DNA of 44,342 bases from a virus (Duplodnaviria; Heunggongvirae; Uroviricota; Caudoviricetes), in IMG/VR virus record IMGVR_UViG_2547132254_000004, positions 1 through 44,342 of that record; one strand, written 5' to 3'. Shown here piece after piece: positions 1 through 42,010 of this stretch; the first letter of the stretch is position 1, and each line of letters begins with the position of its first letter. The notes below the pieces were generated by a model. The model saw only the letters and a program-made list of their open reading frames with translations. It ran no database searches and was not told the DNA's origin. Position numbers and translations under genes: made by a program.

Positions 1-1209
1 ATGTCGGTTTTTCATAACTGGCTGCTTGATATCGCAAGCGGGAATTACTTTATCTACATCAAACGCCTTTCTGCAAACGACACAGGCGCAACAGGTGGCC
101 ATCAGGTCGGACTTTATATCCCCTCAAATATCGTTGAAAAGCTTTTTCCATCTATCAATCATACTCGCGAACTGAACCCTTCAGTCTTCCTTACTGCGCA
201 TGTATCATCCCATGATTGCCCTGATACCCAAGCACGCGCAATTTATTACAACAACCGTTATTTTGGTAAGACCCGAAACGAAAAAAGAATTACGCGCTGG
301 GGGAGAGGAAGTCCATTACAGAACCCTGAAAATACAGGAGCCCTCACAATTCTTGCTTTCAGGTTAAACGAACAGAACACTGACTGTTCCGAGGTAGATA
401 TATGGGTCTGCGTCAATCCCGATGAAGAGGATATCATCGAGTCTGCTATTGGCGAAATCATACCTGGAACCCTAATTTCCGGCCCTGCCGGACAAATTTT
501 GGGCGGATTGTCTCTTCAGCAAACTCCAGTAAATCATAAATATGTTATTCCTGAAGACTGGAAGAAGCGTTTTCCTTCTGGAAACGAAATTATTCAATAT
601 GCTGCTGGCCATTATGCTAAAAACTCCAAGGATCCAGATGAGCAACTGATTGACCGTCGGCGTGTCGAGTATGATATTTTTCTACTCGTCGAGGAATTAC
701 ATGTTCTTGATATTATTAAGAAAGGGTTCGATTCTGTAGATGAGTTTATTGCATTAGCCAACTCTGTCAGTAATCGACGTAAATCAAGGGCAGGTAAATC
801 ACTTGAACTTCACCTAGAGAAGCTTTTTATCGAGCACGGACTACGGCATTTCTCCACTCAGGCAGTTACTGAAGGTAATAAAAAACCAGATTTCCTGTTT
901 CCTTCAGCAGAGGCATATCATAACGCTGAATTTCCTGTAGAAAACTTACGTATGCTGGCAGTAAAGACCACCTGCAAAGATCGCTGGCGTCAGATACTGA
1001 ATGAAGCAGATAAAATCCATCAGGTACATTTATTTACGCTGCAAGAAGGTGTTTCTTCAGCACAATACCGAGAAATGAAAGATGCGGGTGTCAGACTCGT
1101 TGTACCATCAACTTTACATAAAAAATACCCAGAAGCAGTTAGAGAAGAATTAATAACGCTCGGAGCATTCATTACTGAGCTGATAGAACTTTACACTGAA
1201 CTATCATAG
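1..1209 (+). CDS. ecoRIIR: Type II restriction endonuclease, EcoRII family (CCWGG-type)
   Basis: 402-aa ORF starting at ATG pos 1; N-terminus MSVFHNWLL...YIKRLSANDTGATGGHQVGLYIP and overall length match my recollection of R.EcoRII; convergent with a Dcm-type methyltransferase. Identity from memory, not a search. Confidence 0.85.
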   Translation: MSVFHNWLLDIASGNYFIYIKRLSANDTGATGGHQVGLYIPSNIVEKLFPSINHTRELNPSVFLTAHVSSHDCPDTQARAIYYNNRYFGKTRNEKRITRWGRGSPLQNPENTGALTILAFRLNEQNTDCSEVDIWVCVNPDEEDIIESAIGEIIPGTLISGPAGQILGGLSLQQTPVNHKYVIPEDWKKRFPSGNEIIQYAAGHYAKNSKDPDEQLIDRRRVEYDIFLLVEELHVLDIIKKGFDSVDEFIALANSVSNRRKSRAGKSLELHLEKLFIEHGLRHFSTQAVTEGNKKPDFLFPSAEAYHNAEFPVENLRMLAVKTTCKDRWRQILNEADKIHQVHLFTLQEGVSSAQYREMKDAGVRLVVPSTLHKKYPEAVREELITLGAFITELIELYTELS

Positions 1210-33835: not shown

Positions 33836-34383
33836 GCGTTAGTTTCTCCACAGTCACGACACGCCACGGCGCCCGGAGCTGCACACTCGCGGGCGTCATT
33901 ACTTTCTGAAATGCAAAAAATTTTGTAGACCAGTGCTGCATGCTCCTGCAGCTTCGAAATTGAGAGGTACAGCTCGTCGTTAATTGCTGTCTTCTCATGC
34001 GGTTCCACTACACCGTCTTCAATTGCTGAACGAATCTGTTTTGAATAACTGCCGATCTGTTCAATGACCTCCAGCAGGCGTTGGTTGATATCGGCGTTGT
34101 CCACATCCTCGACATCAGGAAGAGACACAAAGACGCCATTTGCAGACTGCGCCACAGCGTCAGCAATGAAGTGAGTTCCACCAGCACGTTGCAAAATCAT
34201 TGCCCATCCCAGCGGGAAAATCTGATCGCCATCGGCACGAAGGCGGTTAAATAATGCGTTCTCTGTTACATCCAGCCAGTCAGCAGCTTCAGCGTACCCC
34301 CCCGGCAACGCTGCGATAGTTTTTCTGACAGCTTTCACGTACCACTCAGGCTGTTTTTCTACTTTCCAGTGATGCTTACCCAC
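33832..34383 (-). CDS. CII-like regulatory protein (CP76-type)
   Basis: 183 aa directly downstream of cro in the rightward operon; family assignment from recollection. Confidence 0.5.
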
Positions 34384-34636
34384 GGTTCACCTCCTGTTCC
34401 TGTGGTTTAAACCCATTCTGGTTTTGGCTAGATTGAAAACGTGCCGGATAAAGAATCTGCATTTCGCTGACTTCACCCTTAAAAAAATTGGCTAAACGTT
34501 CTGCAAGCTCGATAGATGGAATCTGCTCCAGCCTCTCAATACGACTCAACGTCGCTGGATTGACTTGAACACCCGCAGCAACATGCTGCAAAGTGAAACC
34601 ATGCGCCTTACGCACATTTCGTAATGGTGATTGCAT
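34376..34636 (-). CDS. Cro-like HTH (XRE family) repressor
   Basis: 86 aa with HTH HGFTLQHVAAGVQVNPATLSRIE; divergent from cI across an operator-containing spacer. Confidence 0.7.
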   Translation of the reverse strand: MQSPLRNVRKAHGFTLQHVAAGVQVNPATLSRIERLEQIPSIELAERLANFFKGEVSEMQILYPARFQSSQNQNGFKPQEQEVNRG

Positions 34637-34733
34637 ATGCCCTCCAAATATTGCGCGTTATGCATGTTATTTCACGCAATTATTTTGCGCAAGTTGATTT
34701 GCTTATCACGCAATAAAGAAATGTAATAAACGC
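34637..34733. promoter_or_regulatory. Right operator/promoter region with TTGC-N7-GCAA palindromes
   Basis: Palindromic 15-mers TTGCGCGTTATGCAT (34651-34665) and TTGCTTATCACGCAA (34699-34713), plus TTGCGCAA (34685-34692), between divergent cro and cI. Confidence 0.5.
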
Positions 34734-35426
34734 ATGAACATAGGAAACCGAGTCAGACAACTTCGCCAAGCGAAGAACATGAAAATCGCCGATCTCGCTG
34801 AAGCGATAGGAGTAGATGCGGCGAACATCTCGCGCTTAGAAACGGGTAAGCAAAAACAATTTACCGAACAAACACTGAGTAATATTGCCAAGAGCTTAGG
34901 TGTTGATATTGCTGATCTCTTTACCTCTGCCCACAAAAGTAATACTGTATATAAAAACAGTAATAATGAGGATGTTGCGCAGGTGAAGGATGTGTTCCGT
35001 ATTGAAATGCTGGATATCAGTGCCAGTGCGGGAAATGGCCTTATCCAGGGCGGTGATGTCATTGATGTGATTCATGCCATCGAATACAGAACTGATAATG
35101 CTGTATCAATGTTCGGCGGACGACCAGCCAATCACATCAAAGTTATCAACGTTCGTGGGGACAGTATGTGTCCAACCATTGAGCCAGGAGATCTCATCTT
35201 CGTTGATGTCAGCATCAATCAGTTTGATGGTGATGGTATATATGTCTTTGGTTTTGATGACAAAATATACGTTAAAAGACTTCAAATGATTCCTGACAAA
35301 CTGCTGGTGATTTCTGATAACCAGATTTACCGTGAATGGGGAATTACTAGCGAAAACGAACACCGATTCATGGTCTTTGGAAAGGTCTTAATCAGTCAGT
35401 CGCAAACCCTTAAGAGACATAATTAA
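34734..35426 (+). CDS. CI-type prophage repressor (XRE HTH plus S24/LexA-like peptidase domain)
   Basis: 230 aa; N-terminal HTH RVRQLRQAKNMKIADLAEAIGVDAANISRLETGK; C-terminal S24-like region (GDSMCPTIEPGDLIFVD ... VKRL). Confidence 0.85.
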   Translation: MNIGNRVRQLRQAKNMKIADLAEAIGVDAANISRLETGKQKQFTEQTLSNIAKSLGVDIADLFTSAHKSNTVYKNSNNEDVAQVKDVFRIEMLDISASAGNGLIQGGDVIDVIHAIEYRTDNAVSMFGGRPANHIKVINVRGDSMCPTIEPGDLIFVDVSINQFDGDGIYVFGFDDKIYVKRLQMIPDKLLVISDNQIYREWGITSENEHRFMVFGKVLISQSQTLKRHN

Positions 35427-35445
35427 CCTCAATATCCCATCCATC

Positions 35446-35469
35446 GGCCACCGAAAGGTGGCTTTTTAT
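35446..35469 (+). terminator. Rho-independent terminator after cI
   Basis: GCCACC-GAAA-GGTGGC followed by TTTTTATT, 20 nt after the cI stop. Confidence 0.55.
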
Positions 35470-35480
35470 TACCTATAAAT

Positions 35481-35517
35481 TTGCATATCTCGCAAACATC
35501 ACTTGCATATCTCGCAA
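35481..35517. promoter_or_regulatory. Left-operator-like pair of identical palindromes TTGCATATCTCGCAA
   Basis: Two identical copies (35481-35495, 35503-35517), same TTGC-N7-GCAA architecture as the cro/cI sites, upstream of the early-left genes. Confidence 0.45.
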
Positions 35518-35702
35518 TTTAATTTTATCTTTTGTTCCAGACCAACTACAGGATTACAACAAAATCTGGTTGCAACACGGTGCATGTGTCGTAAGCAGTC
35601 AGTAAATGTCAAAAACGAACAGGCAGGACGCCCACGAAGTAGCCGCCGGTGGCGTATGAATGACCGGATGATTCGTTAAATACTATGTGTAAGAGAGCGC
35701 AA

Positions 35703-35906
35703 ATGAACCGTTATTTCACATGCTCGTTTTGTGGCGCAAACGAGCTGCAGGCAAAAAAAATCATCGCCAAAGGCGGAAAAGATGAAGTTGCTATCTGCTC
35801 TGAGTGCGTAGTCTTGTGTGTCGGGGCATTAATCAATAGCAGCACAACTATTCGGTTCACACCAAATGAGAATGCGCCTTTAGATGCGCGGAAATCTGGA
35901 GGTTAA
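35703..35906 (+). CDS. Small ClpX-type C4 zinc-finger-like protein
   Basis: 67 aa from ATG 35703 (MNRYFTCSFCGANELQAKKIIAKGGKDEVAICSECVVLCV...); CSFCG...ICSECV spacing resembles the ClpX N-terminal zinc-binding domain; AAGAGAG RBS. Confidence 0.45.
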   Translation: MNRYFTCSFCGANELQAKKIIAKGGKDEVAICSECVVLCVGALINSSTTIRFTPNENAPLDARKSGG

Positions 35907-35914
35907 AGAACAAA

Positions 35915-36190
35915 ATGAAAGTCCAGATTTTAAACAATAGTGGTGAAGTCGTTTGGTCATACGACATAGCCGCTCCTGTAGATCAGAGCGGCGATAGCTG
36001 GACCAATGGGAAACATCAGATTATGGCTGGAGTTGTATTCTCTTTACGCCGTGCTTTGGAACAGGCTGAAGTCTTTCCATCAGACCCTGAATGGAAATGG
36101 CCTTTTTCTATTTGTCCAAATTCGGAGAGTACATTTCAGAAAATTGGTCAGAAAGTCGCACTCGAAGAGCATCAGCCAACTGTTTCCTGA
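35915..36190 (+). CDS. Hypothetical early-left protein
   Basis: 91-aa ATG ORF; 3' end overlaps a convergent minus-strand ORF, so one of the two may be spurious. Confidence 0.3.
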   Translation: MKVQILNNSGEVVWSYDIAAPVDQSGDSWTNGKHQIMAGVVFSLRRALEQAEVFPSDPEWKWPFSICPNSESTFQKIGQKVALEEHQPTVS

Positions 36191-36353
36191 TTTTTTCAGG
36201 TAACTCGTCGGCATCGCAGAAACAACAACGCTCGATCATGTTGAAAGCCGATTCGTAGAACTGTTTCTGCTGAGTGTCGCTGAGACAGGAAAAGAGCGAC
36301 GTTACGATGATTTTATTAATTGCATTATCAAGTTCTTTTTCATCAAAAGTCAT
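36108..36353 (-). CDS. Hypothetical small acidic protein, antisense to the early-left operon
   Basis: 81 aa with ATG start and AAGGA RBS; helical/acidic composition. Confidence 0.35.
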   Translation of the reverse strand: MTFDEKELDNAINKIIVTSLFSCLSDTQQKQFYESAFNMIERCCFCDADELPEKIRKQLADALRVRLSDQFSEMYSPNLDK

Positions 36354-36790
36354 TTGATTTTCCTTTTATGTATACGGGCTTAAAAGGATACCACCGAGCC
36401 TGAAGTGGTGAAAAGACAGGCACATAACAGCTAAGTATTTTCAACCAGAGAGAATCCTTAGCGTTGTGGTGAATGCGGCTCAGCGCACGCGGGTTAAGGT
36501 TGAGGCTGACAGTCGACCTTCTGTGGATACCCACCCGCCTGGTGTGCAACCTTCGCCAGGCACCGGGAGGCACCCGGCACCACAACTTTATGCTGTGTGT
36601 AGTCCTGGCGGTACCAGTTTGTACCCTTGCTTCCGGCTGGTACCGCTCTTTTTACAAAACAGAGAAGAGCATCACCGGACGACGGGCTCATAACCCAATC
36701 CATCCGGGCGGCTGCCACCGCAGGTGTTCTTCTCTGTTTTGTGGAGAAACTAATCGGCCTTGCAGGGTCGATATGATGAGGAGCAGCAAA

Positions 36791-38334: not shown

Positions 38335-39663
38335 CTGATGAATCCCCTAATGATTTTGGTAAAAATCATTAAGTTAAGGTGGATACACATCTTGTCATAT
38401 GATCAAATGGTTTCGCGAAAAATCAATAATCAGACAACAAGATGTGCGAACTCGATATTTTACACGACTCTCTTTACCAATTCTGCCCCGAATTACACTT
38501 AAAACGACTCAACAGCTTAACGTTGGCTTGCCACGCATTACTTGACTGTAAAACTCTCACTCTTACCGAACTTGGCCGTAACCTGCCAACCAAAGCGAGA
38601 ACAAAACATAACATCAAACGAATCGACCGATTGTTAGGTAATCGTCACCTCCACAAAGAGCGACTCGCTGTATACCGTTGGCATGCTAGCTTTATCTGTT
38701 CGGGCAATACGATGCCCATTGTACTTGTTGACTGGTCTGATATTCGTGAGCAAAAACGACTTATGGTATTGCGAGCTTCAGTCGCACTACACGGTCGTTC
38801 TGTTACTCTTTATGAGAAAGCGTTCCCGCTTTCAGAGCAATGTTCAAAGAAAGCTCATGACCAATTTCTAGCCGACCTTGCGAGCATTCTACCGAGTAAC
38901 ACCACACCGCTCATTGTCAGTGATGCTGGCTTTAAAGTGCCATGGTATAAATCCGTTGAGAAGCTGGGTTGGTACTGGTTAAGTCGAGTAAGAGGAAAAG
39001 TACAATATGCAGACCTAGGAGCGGAAAACTGGAAACCTATCAGCAACTTACATGATATGTCATCTAGTCACTCAAAGACTTTAGGCTATAAGAGGCTGAC
39101 TAAAAGCAATCCAATCTCATGCCAAATTCTATTGTATAAATCTCGCTCTAAAGGCCGAAAAAATCAGCGCTCGACACGGACTCATTGTCACCACCCGTCA
39201 CCTAAAATCTACTCAGCGTCGGCAAAGGAGCCATGGGTTCTAGCAACTAACTTACCTGTTGAAATTCGAACACCCAAACAACTTGTTAATATCTATTCGA
39301 AGCGAATGCAGATTGAAGAAACCTTCCGAGACTTGAAAAGTCCTGCCTACGGACTAGGCCTACGCCATAGCCGAACGAGCAGCTCAGAGCGTTTTGATAT
39401 CATGCTGCTAATCGCCCTGATGCTTCAACTAACATGTTGGCTTGCGGGCGTTCATGCTCAGAAACAAGGTTGGGACAAGCACTTCCAGGCTAACACAGTC
39501 AGAAATCGAAACGTACTCTCAACAGTTCGCTTAGGCATGGAAGTTTTGCGGCATTCTGGCTACACAATAACAAGGGAAGACTTACTCGTGGCTGCAACCC
39601 TACTAGCTCAAAATTTATTCACACATGGTTACGCTTTGGGGAAATTATGAGGGGATCTCTCAG
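38335..39663 (+). mobile_element. IS10 (IS4 family), 1329 bp, flanked by 9-bp target duplication TGCTTTGCA
   Basis: Ends CTGATGAATCCCCTAATGATTTTGG... and ...GGGGATCTCTCAG match IS10 termini; identical TGCTTTGCA at 38326-38334 and 39664-39672. Confidence 0.95.
38442..39650 (+). CDS. IS10 transposase
   Basis: 402 aa (MCELDILHDSLYQFCPELHLKRLNSLTLACHALLDCKTLTL...) matching the IS10/Tn10 transposase. Confidence 0.95.
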   Translation: MCELDILHDSLYQFCPELHLKRLNSLTLACHALLDCKTLTLTELGRNLPTKARTKHNIKRIDRLLGNRHLHKERLAVYRWHASFICSGNTMPIVLVDWSDIREQKRLMVLRASVALHGRSVTLYEKAFPLSEQCSKKAHDQFLADLASILPSNTTPLIVSDAGFKVPWYKSVEKLGWYWLSRVRGKVQYADLGAENWKPISNLHDMSSSHSKTLGYKRLTKSNPISCQILLYKSRSKGRKNQRSTRTHCHHPSPKIYSASAKEPWVLATNLPVEIRTPKQLVNIYSKRMQIEETFRDLKSPAYGLGLRHSRTSSSERFDIMLLIALMLQLTCWLAGVHAQKQGWDKHFQANTVRNRNVLSTVRLGMEVLRHSGYTITREDLLVAATLLAQNLFTHGYALGKL

Positions 39664-40036
39664 TGCTTTGCAGCCAGCTGGTACCGCAGGAATTTGCTTT
39701 TGAAGCGTTAATGCATGATGCAACAGAAGCGTATTGCCAGGACATCCCGGCTCCACTGAAACGCCTTCTTCCTGACTATAAACGGATGGAAGAAAAAATA
39801 GACGCCGTAATCCGTGAGAAATACGGGTTACCCCCGGTTATGAGTACACCCGTGAAATATGCCGATCTCATCATGCTGGCAACCGAACGCCGCGATCTCG
39901 GGCTTGATGATGGCTCTTTCTGGCCTGTGCTGGAAGGTATCCCGGCAACAGAGATGTTCAACGTGATTCCACTGGCTCCAGGCCATGCCTACGGGATGTT
40001 TATGGAACGCTTTAACGAATTATCGGAGTTACGCAA

Positions 40037-40658: not shown

Positions 40659-40877
40659 GTGGAGAAACATATGCTGAACCTCGATTGTGTTCCAATCTCA
40701 ACTTATTGCAAAGAAACTGGCGAAACTCCTGAAGCAATAAACAAACGTGTACAGCGCGGTGTTTGGCGTGAAGGTGTTCAGGTTTTAAAGGTTGAAGGCG
40801 TTAAGGAGAGGTGGATTGATCTTAGTGAGGTTGCAAAATGGGCCAGACAAAACTGCTCAAACTACCGCGCGGCGTAA
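40659..40877 (+). CDS. Excisionase-like protein
   Basis: 72 aa immediately upstream of and overlapping the integrase start. Confidence 0.5.
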   Translation: MEKHMLNLDCVPISTYCKETGETPEAINKRVQRGVWREGVQVLKVEGVKERWIDLSEVAKWARQNCSNYRAA

Positions 40878-42010
40878 CAATCAGGAAACACCGCCTGGGC
40901 GAAACGATCAATATAACTTTCACCTATAAAGGAGTTAAATGTCGTGAGCCTCTTTCCAATCTGGAAGTAATACCAAAGAACATAAAATACGCCGAGCGCA
41001 CACTCGGCGAAATTCATAATAAGATCGAAAGGGGAACATTCATTTATGCGGAATATTTTCCCCGTTCTGCTCGTTTGAAAATTTTTGGTAATGCTGCTGC
41101 AGGCAAAACGGTAAAAATGTACCTGGACGAATACCTTGAAATCTGCGAAACGAGAAAACTTTCACCCTCTACGATTGGTGGTTATAAAAAATGCCGTAGT
41201 GCGTTAGCCTCACTCCACATTTGCCCTGCAAGTGAATTAACACCAGCAATCCTGAAAGCGTGGATTCAAAGCCAGAAAACGACCTTAAAAACAATTCGCA
41301 ACCAGTTATCTTTCCTGCGGTCAGCACTTGATGAAGCCGTAACCGATGGGGTACTTCAAATTAACCCCGTATCGTTGGTAACTGCTTCGCGCTACCAAAG
41401 TGATAAGTCAGAAGCAGAAAGCAGCTACGTGGTTGATCCGCTATCACCAGCAGAAGTTGATGCATTACTAGCAGCAGCCGGAAACAAACAATGGGAAAAT
41501 CTGTTCCGGTTCGCTATACATACAGGCCTGCGTAGTTCTGAATTATGTGCCCTTCGATGGCGTGATATCGACTTTGTTGGAAAAACTGCCCATGTCCAGA
41601 GCGCAAGTGTTGTCGGTGTTATCAAAGGGACAAAGACAAAAGCAGGTACTCGGAAAGTTGAACTGACAGAAGAGGCAATGTTGGCGCTGATAAATCAGAA
41701 GCCATTTACATTCATGAAGGATGCTACTGTCTTTGAAGATCCAAAGACCAATAAGCCTTGGGCAAGTGCTGATGCAATTAGGAAAAAAGCATGGGTGCCA
41801 ACATTGCGAAAAGCAGGTATTCGTTACAGAAACCCATATCAAACCAGGCATACATTCGCCACCAGCCATATCAGCCGAGGAGCAAACCTGTTTTGGCTTG
41901 CAGCTCAAATGGGGCATAAAGGGCCGGAGATGCTTTTCAGGCACTATGGTTCGTATCTTAAAGAGTATGATAACTTTACATCGATAAATCATTTGCATAA
42001 TCATAATTAA
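40838..42010 (+). CDS. Tyrosine integrase (lambda Int family) of the lambdoid prophage
   Basis: 390 aa with ATG start; C-terminal catalytic region with RHTFATSHISRGANLFWLAAQMGHK...LFRHY; reads toward the ssrA-derived attachment core. Confidence 0.85.
   Translation: MGQTKLLKLPRGVTIRKHRLGETINITFTYKGVKCREPLSNLEVIPKNIKYAERTLGEIHNKIERGTFIYAEYFPRSARLKIFGNAAAGKTVKMYLDEYLEICETRKLSPSTIGGYKKCRSALASLHICPASELTPAILKAWIQSQKTTLKTIRNQLSFLRSALDEAVTDGVLQINPVSLVTASRYQSDKSEAESSYVVDPLSPAEVDALLAAAGNKQWENLFRFAIHTGLRSSELCALRWRDIDFVGKTAHVQSASVVGVIKGTKTKAGTRKVELTEEAMLALINQKPFTFMKDATVFEDPKTNKPWASADAIRKKAWVPTLRKAGIRYRNPYQTRHTFATSHISRGANLFWLAAQMGHKGPEMLFRHYGSYLKEYDNFTSINHLHNHN

What the first reader, a model, noticed from the sequence alone, without database searches (positions are those of the whole stretch)
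35446..35520. cI ends in a terminator followed by a left-operator-like pair; no rex-position genes
Twenty nt after the cI stop there is an intrinsic terminator, then two identical TTGCATATCTCGCAA palindromes 22 bp apart (start to start), then the early-left genes. So cI is monocistronic and the early-left promoter/operator sits immediately downstream, a compact immunity region.
Basis: seen in the sequence. Interest (0 to 1): 0.4.

Follow-up and report, generated by a model that had tools for sequence, protein, structure and literature searches.

The report
cI terminator and left operator pair
The prophage repressor gene ends in a terminator followed directly by two repressor-binding sites and the promoter for the early-left genes, an ordinary compact switch, but the transcript from that promoter starts with a widespread structured RNA found in no database searched.

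Summary
The cI stop is at 35424-26. A strong hairpin plus T-run lies at 35446-35467. Two identical TTGCATATCTCGCAA sites lie at 35481 and 35503, and there is no ORF between them and cI.

The same TTGC-N7-GCAA sites occur at the cI/cro intergenic region. In relatives about 10% diverged, all four sites keep their half-sites and change only in the centre. A TTGCAT-17-TATCTT promoter overlapping the second site is conserved even in diverged immunity types. The layout matches HK022, e14 and SfV, and the window is 99% identical to Shigella phage SfII, so this part is ordinary.

A less ordinary feature lies just outside the given coordinates. The early-left leader carries a 64-nt structured RNA motif at 35614-35677. 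It has two covarying helices and a 22-nt core used as the search key. It occurs in about a third of complete E. coli genomes, including K-12 e14, and always follows a repressor gene and its left promoter. It has no Rfam match and is not detectably related to HK022 put. Its function is unknown. It is often followed by an rrn-type boxA, which suggests a role in transcription elongation or antitermination.

The parts
34376..34636 (-). cro-like gene (86 aa, HTH_3), divergent from cI
   Evidence: annotated as Cro in SfII
34651..34665 (.). Right-operator site TTGCGCGTTATGCAT, overlapping the predicted PR start region
   Evidence: Half-sites are conserved and the centre varies in mEp460/Stx2a_1447.
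34666..34694 (-). Candidate PR for cro: -35 TTGCGC (34694..34689), 17 nt, -10 TAACAT (34671..34666)
   Evidence: Read by eye. The stretch is invariant. This is an inference.
34699..34713 (.). Right-operator site TTGCTTATCACGCAA, an exact TTGC-N7-GCAA
   Evidence: Changes are centre-only.
34699..34727 (+). Candidate PRM: -35 TTGCTT, 17 nt, -10 TGTAAT. The -10 ends 6 nt before the cI ATG, which predicts a leaderless cI mRNA.
   Evidence: Read by eye and invariant. The e14 repressor ymfK mRNA is leaderless experimentally (PMC4681348). This is an inference.
34734..35426 (+). cI repressor (230 aa): N-terminal HTH, Ala99-Gly100 cleavage site, S24 domain with Ser144 and Lys181
   Evidence: It is 99% identical in DNA to the SfII cI region, 83% to ST64B Sb38 and 42% to HK022 CI.
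35446..35470 (+). Intrinsic terminator of the cI transcript: 7-bp stem, GAAA loop, TTTTTATT tail
   Evidence: It is annotated as a putative terminator in SfII. The stem is kept and the loop changed in mEp460. Equivalent hairpins with other sequences occur in all relatives examined.
35481..35495 (.). Left-operator site distal to the promoter (about -57 to -43 of PL), TTGCATATCTCGCAA
35503..35517 (.). Left-operator site proximal to the promoter (about -35 to -21 of PL), TTGCATATCTCGCAA. Its first six bases are the -35 hexamer.
35503..35531 (+). Candidate PL: -35 TTGCAT, 17 nt, -10 TATCTT. The predicted start is near 35538.
   Evidence: It is the best promoter in the 150 nt upstream of the RNA motif. 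TTTTATCTTT is invariant in mEp460/Stx2a_1447. The same -10 at the same spacing occurs in L023/L029/L033. The strict scan does not find it.
35538..35613 (+). Leader segment of about 75 nt, specific to the SfII/mEp460 immunity type, function unknown
   Evidence: Shared with mEp460/Stx2a_1447 up to about 35586. No significant fold.
35614..35677 (+). Conserved structured leader RNA motif. P1 pairs 35614-19 with 35672-77. The 22-nt core used as the search key lies at 35622-43. P2 pairs 35646-50 with 35663-67.
35703..35906 (+). First early-left gene, a 67-aa ClpX-type zinc-finger protein (the ORF is open from 35685)
   Evidence: start inferred from homologues
35915..36190 (+). Second early-left gene, homologue of SfV orf33 (phrog_3195)
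36433..36655 (+). STnc100-like RNA ending in a long-stem terminator, inside the early-left operon
   Evidence: 46.5 bits; gathering score 47

Best explanation
This is the left boundary of a compact, HK022/e14/SfII-type lambdoid immunity region. cI is transcribed alone, probably as a leaderless mRNA, and its transcript stops at the intrinsic terminator at 35446-35470. Directly downstream lies the early-left control region. It has two TTGC-N7-GCAA operators 22 bp apart and a sigma-70 promoter, TTGCAT-17-TATCTT, whose -35 hexamer is the left half of the proximal operator. In a lysogen, CI dimers bound to the two sites would occlude the -35 and upstream contacts and shut off early-left transcription. 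They are likely to bind cooperatively and may loop to the two like sites about 780 bp away at the cI/cro region. RecA-stimulated autocleavage of CI would release the promoter. The sequence features, their non-random placement, their conservation pattern and the recurrence of the architecture are shown. CI binding, the transcription start, terminator efficiency and looping are inferred. The transcript from this promoter carries a conserved structured RNA at 35614-35677. My best guess (about 0.3) is that it acts in cis on the elongating polymerase to help the operon read through internal terminators.
For: Exact repeats and a terminator are present at the stated coordinates. Three of the four exact TTGC-N7-GCAA matches in the window lie in the two cI-flanking control regions. 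With one mismatch allowed, 4 of 24 sites lie there, p = 5e-6. In mEp460 and Stx2a_1447, all four sites keep their half-sites and vary only at positions 6-11. The terminator stem and the -10 TTTTATCTTT are kept while flanks, loop and spacer change. In nine closer relatives, substitutions fall only in operator centres and in the spacer. Diverged immunity types L023/L029/L033 have their own TTGC..GCAA pair at the same distance from the same TATCTT. ST64B cI shares the HTH region (83% identity overall) and ST64B has TTGCATATATCGCAA at the same place. Across 98 loci, the region after cI shares longer words with its own cI-upstream region than with foreign ones: 35% against 7% share a 10-mer or longer. 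The same order of parts recurs with unrelated sequences in e14, SfV, ZF40, an Aeromonas phage and HK022. HK022 is the experimentally studied case, with OL and OR about 700 bp apart and CI looping shown (PMC8053113). The upstream ORF is a cI-type repressor in at least 88 of 113 loci. In 61 of 63 loci with a strong promoter, the -10 ends 5-25 nt before the RNA motif, so transcription does start between cI and the motif.
Against: The promoter matches the consensus at only 7 of 12 positions, and the strict scan finds none in 34300-36300. No operator covers the -10 or the start site, unlike lambda PL. The operator spacing is not fixed among relatives (22, 23 or 24 bp), which sits uneasily with strict same-face cooperativity. 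There are no binding or transcript data for this phage. In this window the promoter lies 82 nt upstream of the RNA motif rather than the usual 5-25 nt, so a second start nearer the motif cannot be excluded.
Confidence: 0.85

Rival explanations
1. There is no promoter here. Early-left genes are expressed by read-through from the cI promoter, and the repeats serve some other purpose, such as a roadblock or a looping anchor only.
For: The consensus match of the candidate promoter is weak and the strict scan finds nothing.
Against: A strong terminator lies between cI and the repeats. The -10 and its spacing to the operator are conserved across diverged relatives. Homologous positions in e14, SfV, ZF40 and the Aeromonas phage carry near-consensus TTGACA-N16-18-TAATAT-type promoters. 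Read-through from the maintenance promoter would express lytic, xis and int genes in lysogens.
Confidence: 0.05
2. The repeats are bound by a regulator other than CI (Cro only, or a host factor), or they are a chance duplication.
For: There are no binding data. Cro normally shares CI's operators, so Cro binding is expected in any case.
Against: The same half-sites occur at the cI/cro region and are enriched there at p = 5e-6. Conservation spares the half-sites. Operator sequences change together with the repressor type across loci.
Confidence: 0.04
3. On the function of the leader RNA: it is a docking site for a phage or host protein (nut-like), not an RNA that acts on polymerase by itself.
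For: An rrn-type boxA follows the motif in 35 of 209 contexts. Thirteen Xenorhabdus/Photorhabdus contexts have an N-like gene about 200 nt downstream.
Against: SfII, SfV and SfIV are reported to lack N (PMC3851460), yet they carry the motif. The first downstream gene is highly variable, 54 clusters among 150 contexts. The window has no boxA.
Confidence: 0.25
4. On the function of the leader RNA: it does not act on elongation at all. It could be a 5' stabiliser, a CsrA-type binding site (the core contains CAGGACG in a small hairpin loop), a processed trans-acting RNA, or an anti-defence decoy.
For: The motif sits at the extreme 5' end of the transcript in most loci. There is only one copy per phage and none in the right operon. 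mEp460-type phages with the same immunity region lack it, so it is dispensable for that switch.
Against: A simple stabiliser would not need 22 invariant nucleotides. The association with boxA points to elongation complexes. No terminator follows the motif that would release a discrete small RNA.
Confidence: 0.4

Closest known systems
Phage HK022 immunity region (cI, terminator, OL/PL, putL, nun)
   Same: cI stands alone between the left and right operators. A hairpin plus T-run follows cI directly, then repeated operators and PL, then a structured leader RNA about 70 nt long, then the early-left genes. The operators are about 700-800 bp apart (PMC8053113). The CI C-terminal domain is homologous, 42% identity.
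   Different: The HTH and operator sequences differ. HK022 OL has three sites, with 53 bp between OL2 and OL3 (PMC8053113), whereas two are seen here. The leader RNA is put in HK022, with a second copy (putR) in the right operon. Here the leader RNA is an unrelated motif in a single copy.
E. coli K-12 e14 prophage and Shigella phages SfV/SfIV (cohE/ymfK, PL, ymfJ)
   Same: The order of parts is identical, and the leader RNA motif is the same. The repressor mRNA is leaderless in e14 (PMC4681348). The left operon is induced by DNA damage (PMC11228462).
   Different: The repressor specificity differs (ATGTACC-N5-GGTACAT-type operators). PL is near-consensus, TTGACA-16-CATAAT. The motif starts about 15 nt after the -10 there, against 82 nt here.
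Phage lambda cI-rexA-rexB, OL1-3/PL, nutL, N
   Same: cI and the early-left operon share one orientation. The left operators repeat the right-operator sequence. Repression acts by occluding the promoter.
   Different: Lambda has rexA and rexB between cI and OL, three operators covering -10 and -35, and N with nutL. Here there are no rex-position genes, two operators over -35 and upstream of it, and no N gene (reported for SfII in PMC3851460) and no boxA.
HK022/HK639 put antiterminator RNA
   Same: The position (start of the PL transcript), the size (about 65-70 nt), conserved unpaired bases flanked by covarying helices, and carriage by phages reported to lack N. HK639 is annotated with a putL-like site only.
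   Different: There is no detectable sequence or structure relationship. The covariance model of the motif does not hit HK022 or HK639 put at E up to 10. Antitermination activity has not been tested.
rrn and lambda boxA-containing antitermination leaders
   Same: In 17% of contexts the motif is followed within about 100 nt by GCTCTTTAACAA, the rrn boxA consensus (that it is the rrn consensus is from my own knowledge), on the same strand.
   Different: This window has no boxA. The motif is not a boxB-type 15-nt hairpin.

Membership tests
Lambdoid left operator/promoter (OL/PL) | The sites repeat the operator sequence found between cI and cro of the same phage. | tested here: met
   TTGC-N7-GCAA occurs at 34699 (exact), 34651 (1 half-site mismatch), 35481 and 35503.
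Lambdoid left operator/promoter (OL/PL) | The region lies downstream of cI and faces the early-left genes on the same strand. | tested here: met
   The downstream + strand genes run on towards a large ORF (40838-42010) that I take to be the integrase; that ORF was not checked for domains.
Lambdoid left operator/promoter (OL/PL) | The operators overlap a sigma-70 promoter. | tested here: inconclusive
   TTGCAT-17-TATCTT overlaps the proximal site and is conserved, but it fails the strict consensus scan.
Lambdoid left operator/promoter (OL/PL) | The sites are bound by CI, and the promoter is repressed in lysogens and released on induction. | not testable with these tools
   This needs a footprint or a reporter assay.
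Intrinsic (Rho-independent) terminator | A G+C-rich hairpin is followed at once by a U-run. | tested here: met
   7-bp stem, GAAA loop, UUUUUAUU tail; -13.2 kcal/mol, z = -3.4. The stem is kept and the loop changed in mEp460.
Intrinsic (Rho-independent) terminator | It actually stops transcription. | not testable with these tools
   This needs 3'-end mapping.
HK022-type put RNA | Sequence and structure similarity to putL/putR (CGAACGGCGCG...AAACCAUGCGUCGG..., two stem-loops). | tested here: not met
   The model R1 does not hit HK022 or HK639 put at E up to 10. No alignment is visible by eye.
HK022-type put RNA | A copy in each early operon (putL and putR). | tested here: not met
   There is one copy in the window with filters off and one per locus.
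HK022-type put RNA | Factor-independent terminator read-through that is blocked by RNA polymerase beta-prime zinc-domain mutations. | not testable with these tools
   This needs an experiment.
Lambda-type nut site | A boxA plus a boxB hairpin, and an N gene downstream. | tested here: not met
   There is no boxA within 2 mismatches between 34000 and 38400. The first genes are a ClpX-zinc-finger protein and phrog_3195. SfII is reported to lack N (PMC3851460).
Any Rfam 15 family (for the leader motif) | A match to a curated covariance model. | tested here: not met
   There is no match at E up to 1 in 35300-36000, none at gathering score in the window, and none at the motif in seven other loci.

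The most novel reading that the evidence does not exclude
The 64-nt leader motif (35614-35677) is a previously undescribed class of cis-acting RNA. On this reading it modifies the transcription elongation complex at the start of early-left operons, working like put without being related to it and sometimes together with boxA/Nus factors. That would give N-less lambdoid prophages such as SfII, SfV, ST64B and K-12 e14 their means of reading through internal terminators. A weaker claim is more probable, about 0.55: that it is a real structured RNA family absent from the databases and literature I could search.
Probability: 0.2. Interest if true: 0.8.

Novelty: new member of a known kind. Interest (0 to 1): 0.4.

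Why it matters
The operator, promoter and terminator assignment fills an annotation gap for the SfII/mEp460/Stx2a_1447 immunity type, which includes Shiga-toxin-converting phages. It also defines that type's operator as TTGC-N7-GCAA. This helps predict immunity groups and induction behaviour, but it adds no new principle.

The leader RNA could matter more. It is a highly conserved structured element in roughly a third of complete E. coli genomes and across Enterobacterales. It sits at the first transcribed bases of the operon that carries recombination, excision and integration genes. How N-less lambdoid phages other than HK022 get past terminators in their early operons is, as far as I know, not established, and I found no account of it for these phages in the papers I could search. 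This motif makes that question directly testable in E. coli K-12, because e14 carries it.

Tried and rejected
- **Strict promoter scan:** it found nothing in 34300-36300. The PL, PR and PRM candidates therefore rest on reading by eye plus conservation.
- **Rfam:** I searched at gathering score over the whole window, at E up to 1 around the leader, and over seven related loci. Nothing matched at the motif.
- **Relationship to put:** I fetched the HK022 and HK639 put regions and searched them with the motif model. There was no hit, so membership is rejected.
- **Second, putR-like copy in the right operon:** none was found with filters off.
- **nut site in the window:** no boxA.
- **Minus-strand small RNA:** the scan flags a weak terminator-like site on the minus strand at 35635..35619. 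It lies inside the invariant core, and the U-run after it is peculiar to the SfII group. I rejected this reading.
- **Small ORF across the motif:** the 58-aa ORF 35503-35679 is rejected. The 22-nt core was required exactly, so its invariance says nothing here; what argues against coding is that the flanks vary by paired compensatory changes rather than at third codon positions.
- **Single-sequence folding:** it gives no significant z-score for the leader or the motif. The support for structure comes from covariation only.
- **Strand from covariation:** this is not decisive, with 13 G-U cells against 24 A-C cells, 18 of them at one terminal pair.
- **Gene-specific riboswitch-like role:** rejected, because the first downstream gene is very variable.
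- **Literature:** a full-text search for the core sequence found nothing. King 2011 (PMC3187212) and Mehta 2004 (PMC331406) are not held, so a prior description there cannot be excluded. PreS/LPR1 of lambda is a different RNA.

Full report
**What the window is.** The segment 34300-35677 is 99.1% identical to Shigella phage SfII. It is about 91% identical to mEp460, several ECOR prophage-derived phages and the Stx2a_1447/WGPS2 Shiga-toxin phages. The + strand corresponds to lambda's leftward direction. The gene at 34734-35426 (+) is a cI-type repressor with HTH_3 and Peptidase_S24 domains. The gene at 34376-34636 (-) is a Cro-like HTH protein, followed by a CII(CP76)/YmfL-like gene. The SfII record annotates cI, cro and a 'putative rho-independent terminator' after cI, but no operators.

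**The observation.** The cI stop is TAA at 35424-26. A 7-bp G+C-rich hairpin with a GAAA loop lies at 35446-35463, followed by TTTTTATT. The terminator scan finds it. It folds at -13.2 kcal/mol, z = -3.4 against shuffles. TTGCATATCTCGCAA occurs exactly twice in the window, at 35481-95 and 35503-17. No ORF of 30 aa or more lies between cI and these sites. The only correction is that 19 nt, not 20, separate the stop from the hairpin.

**Are the repeats operators?**
- The outer bases form the palindrome TTGC-N7-GCAA. The exact pattern occurs four times in 44 kb. Three of these are next to cI: the two repeats, and 34699-34713 in the cI/cro intergenic region.
- With one half-site mismatch allowed, a fourth site appears at 34651-65. 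Four of the 24 such sites in the window then lie in the two ~100-bp regions flanking cI, p = 5e-6.
- Phylogenetic footprinting agrees. In mEp460 and Stx2a_1447 the four sites keep TTGC and GCA(A/T), and every change falls at positions 6-11. In nine closer relatives, substitutions hit only operator positions 8-10 and the inter-operator spacer.
- ST64B's repressor is 83% identical, with an almost identical HTH region. ST64B has TTGCATATATCGCAA at the equivalent place.
- Diverged relatives L023, L029 and L033 carry their own TTGCG..CGCAA pairs there.
- e14 and SfV have a different repressor. They carry ATGTACC-type palindromes both after cI and between cI and cro.
- Over 98 distinct loci, the post-cI region shares a 10-mer or longer with its own pre-cI region in 35% of cases, against 7% for foreign pairings.

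**Is there a promoter?** The strict consensus scan finds none. TTGCAT (35503-08), 17 nt, TATCTT (35526-31) is the best candidate in the 150 nt upstream of the leader motif. TTTTATCTTT is invariant in mEp460 and Stx2a_1447 while neighbouring bases change. The same -10 at the same distance from the proximal operator is present in L023, L029 and L033. At the homologous position, e14, SfV, ZF40 and an Aeromonas phage have near-consensus promoters. The proximal operator would then cover -35 to -21 and the distal one about -57 to -43. This differs from lambda, where the operators cover -10 and -35. The spacing between the two sites is 22 bp here but 23-24 bp in relatives.

**The cI side of the switch.** By eye, the cI side reads as a -10 TGTAAT ending 6 nt before the ATG, which implies a leaderless mRNA. 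The e14 repressor mRNA has been shown to be leaderless (PMC4681348). PR for cro reads as TTGCGC-17-TAACAT on the minus strand.

**Generality of the architecture.** A hairpin plus T-run after the repressor gene, then repeats plus a promoter, recurs with unrelated sequences in ST64B, ZF40, the Aeromonas phage, SfV, e14 and HK022. HK022 is the studied model. Its OL and OR are about 700 bp apart, with cI alone between them, and its CI loops the two (PMC8053113). Here the corresponding distance is about 780 bp. The window's CI is 42% identical to HK022 CI, mainly in the C-terminal domain. Some relatives do carry cargo genes, such as a kinase-like or a ParA-like protein, between the repressor and the left promoter. 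'No rex-position genes' is thus one of two states in this family.

**The leader RNA motif.**
- *Discovery.* A distant-similarity search showed that 35609-35679 is 82-97% identical to unannotated DNA in many phages with unrelated repressors: ST64B, SfV, SfIV, ZF40, and Yersinia, Klebsiella, Providencia and Aeromonas phages.
- *Distribution.* The 22-nt core GGCAGGACGCCCACGAAGTAGC occurs in at least 120 IMG/VR contigs and in 92 stretches of species-representative genomes, almost all Enterobacterales. It occurs in 1838 of 5426 complete E. coli genomes. One of these is K-12, where it lies in e14 between ymfK and ymfJ and is not annotated.
- *Structure.* An alignment of 98 distinct copies shows two helices. 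P1 pairs window 35614-19 with 35672-77. P2 pairs 35646-50 with 35663-67. Covariation is extensive: 94.3% of cells are paired against 64% in shuffles and 18-44% when the partner is slid, and 10 of 11 pairs show compensatory changes. RNAalifold finds the same helices.
- *Limits of the invariance.* Because these copies were collected by requiring the core exactly, the core's invariance in the alignment is by construction. The BLAST hits are the independent evidence that it is conserved.
- *Relationships.* There is no Rfam match. A covariance model of the motif finds one copy in the window at 91.9 bits and no second copy. It does not hit HK022 or HK639 put.
- *Strand.* Covariation does not settle the strand, with 13 G-U cells against 24 A-C cells. 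The + strand is assigned for three reasons. In 61 of 63 loci with a strong promoter, the -10 ends 5-25 nt upstream of P1. The upstream gene is a cI-type repressor in at least 88 of 113 loci. The associated boxA is on the + strand.

**What the motif might do.**
- The first downstream gene is highly variable, 54 clusters among 150 contexts. The motif is therefore not a gene-specific regulator.
- No terminator follows it that would release a small RNA.
- In 35 of 209 contexts an rrn-type boxA (GCTCTTTAACAA, at most 1 mismatch) follows within about 100 nt on the same strand. The background rate is 0.003 per 700 nt.
- Thirteen Xenorhabdus/Photorhabdus contexts have an N-like gene about 200 nt downstream.
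- SfII, SfV and SfIV are reported to lack N (PMC3851460), and all three carry the motif.
- The window's early-left operon contains an STnc100-like RNA ending in a long-stem terminator at 36433-36655. Distal genes would need read-through of this terminator.
- These points favour a role in elongation or antitermination, but none is a functional test.
- Against an essential role, mEp460-type phages with the same immunity region lack the motif, and the window has no boxA.
- I put antitermination in cis at about 0.3, a protein-docking nut-like role at about 0.25, and other roles (stabiliser, CsrA-type site, trans-acting RNA, decoy) at about 0.4.

**Verdict.** The finding as written is correct and ordinary. 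The operators, promoter and terminator are a new, unannotated member of the HK022/e14-type compact immunity layout. The overall score is raised somewhat by the leader RNA found next to it. That RNA appears undescribed in the sources I could search, but two possibly relevant papers were not available.

Noticed in passing
window 35614-35677 (+): A conserved structured RNA motif sits in the early-left leader. It has two covarying helices and a 22-nt core. There is one copy per phage and no Rfam match. It is present in 1838 of 5426 complete E. coli genomes, including K-12 e14.
   Followed up: yes
L015 ~1320-1345, L020, L036, L084, L090, L127, L191 and others: In 35 of 209 contexts the motif is followed within about 100 nt by an rrn-type boxA (GCTCTTTAACAA). 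The boxA is often preceded by the hairpin AAGCGCCC..GGACGCTT. The window has no boxA.
   Followed up: partly
window 36433-36655 (+): An STnc100-like RNA (46.5 bits, just under the gathering score of 47) ends in a 10-bp stem plus T-run, inside the early-left operon. Similar hits occur in e14, ST64B and L015.
   Followed up: partly
window 38380-39710: An IS10 (RNA-OUT at 38380-38449 at 98.8 bits; 402-aa transposase at 38442-39650) is inserted in the early-left operon, between the DUF2303 gene and the distal genes.
   Followed up: partly
window 35703-35906 (+): The first early-left gene encodes a 67-aa protein that is essentially a ClpX-type C4 zinc finger (Pfam zf-C4_ClpX, phrog_5259). The same family is the first gene after the motif in several other loci.
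   Followed up: partly
window 34722-34736: The -10-like TGTAAT ends 6 nt before the cI ATG, and there is no Shine-Dalgarno sequence. This predicts a leaderless cI mRNA, as shown experimentally for e14 ymfK.
   Followed up: partly
window 35538-35613: An extra leader of about 75 nt lies between the promoter and the motif. It is specific to the SfII/mEp460 immunity type. It is conserved in mEp460 and Stx2a_1447 up to about 35586 and shows no significant fold. In most other phages the motif starts 5-25 nt after the -10.
   Followed up: partly
L027, L034, L040, L073, L082, L087, L091 (between repressor gene and left promoter): Some relatives carry cargo genes in the 'rex position', including a Ser/Thr-kinase-like protein, a ParA-like ATPase and a 535-aa protein. 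These may be defence or exclusion genes.
   Followed up: no
L038, L031, L010, L005, L004 and others, ~20-90 nt after the motif: A second conserved leader module (..CGCAGCAGG..AACGTTCCGC-hairpin-ATAAGGCA..) follows the motif in many non-E. coli loci. It is absent from the window.
   Followed up: no
L003 (ST64B) 242-430 (-): Rfam C4 antisense RNA (79.7 bits) and isrK (64.3 bits) lie next to each other in the right operon of ST64B. Neither was found in the window.
   Followed up: no
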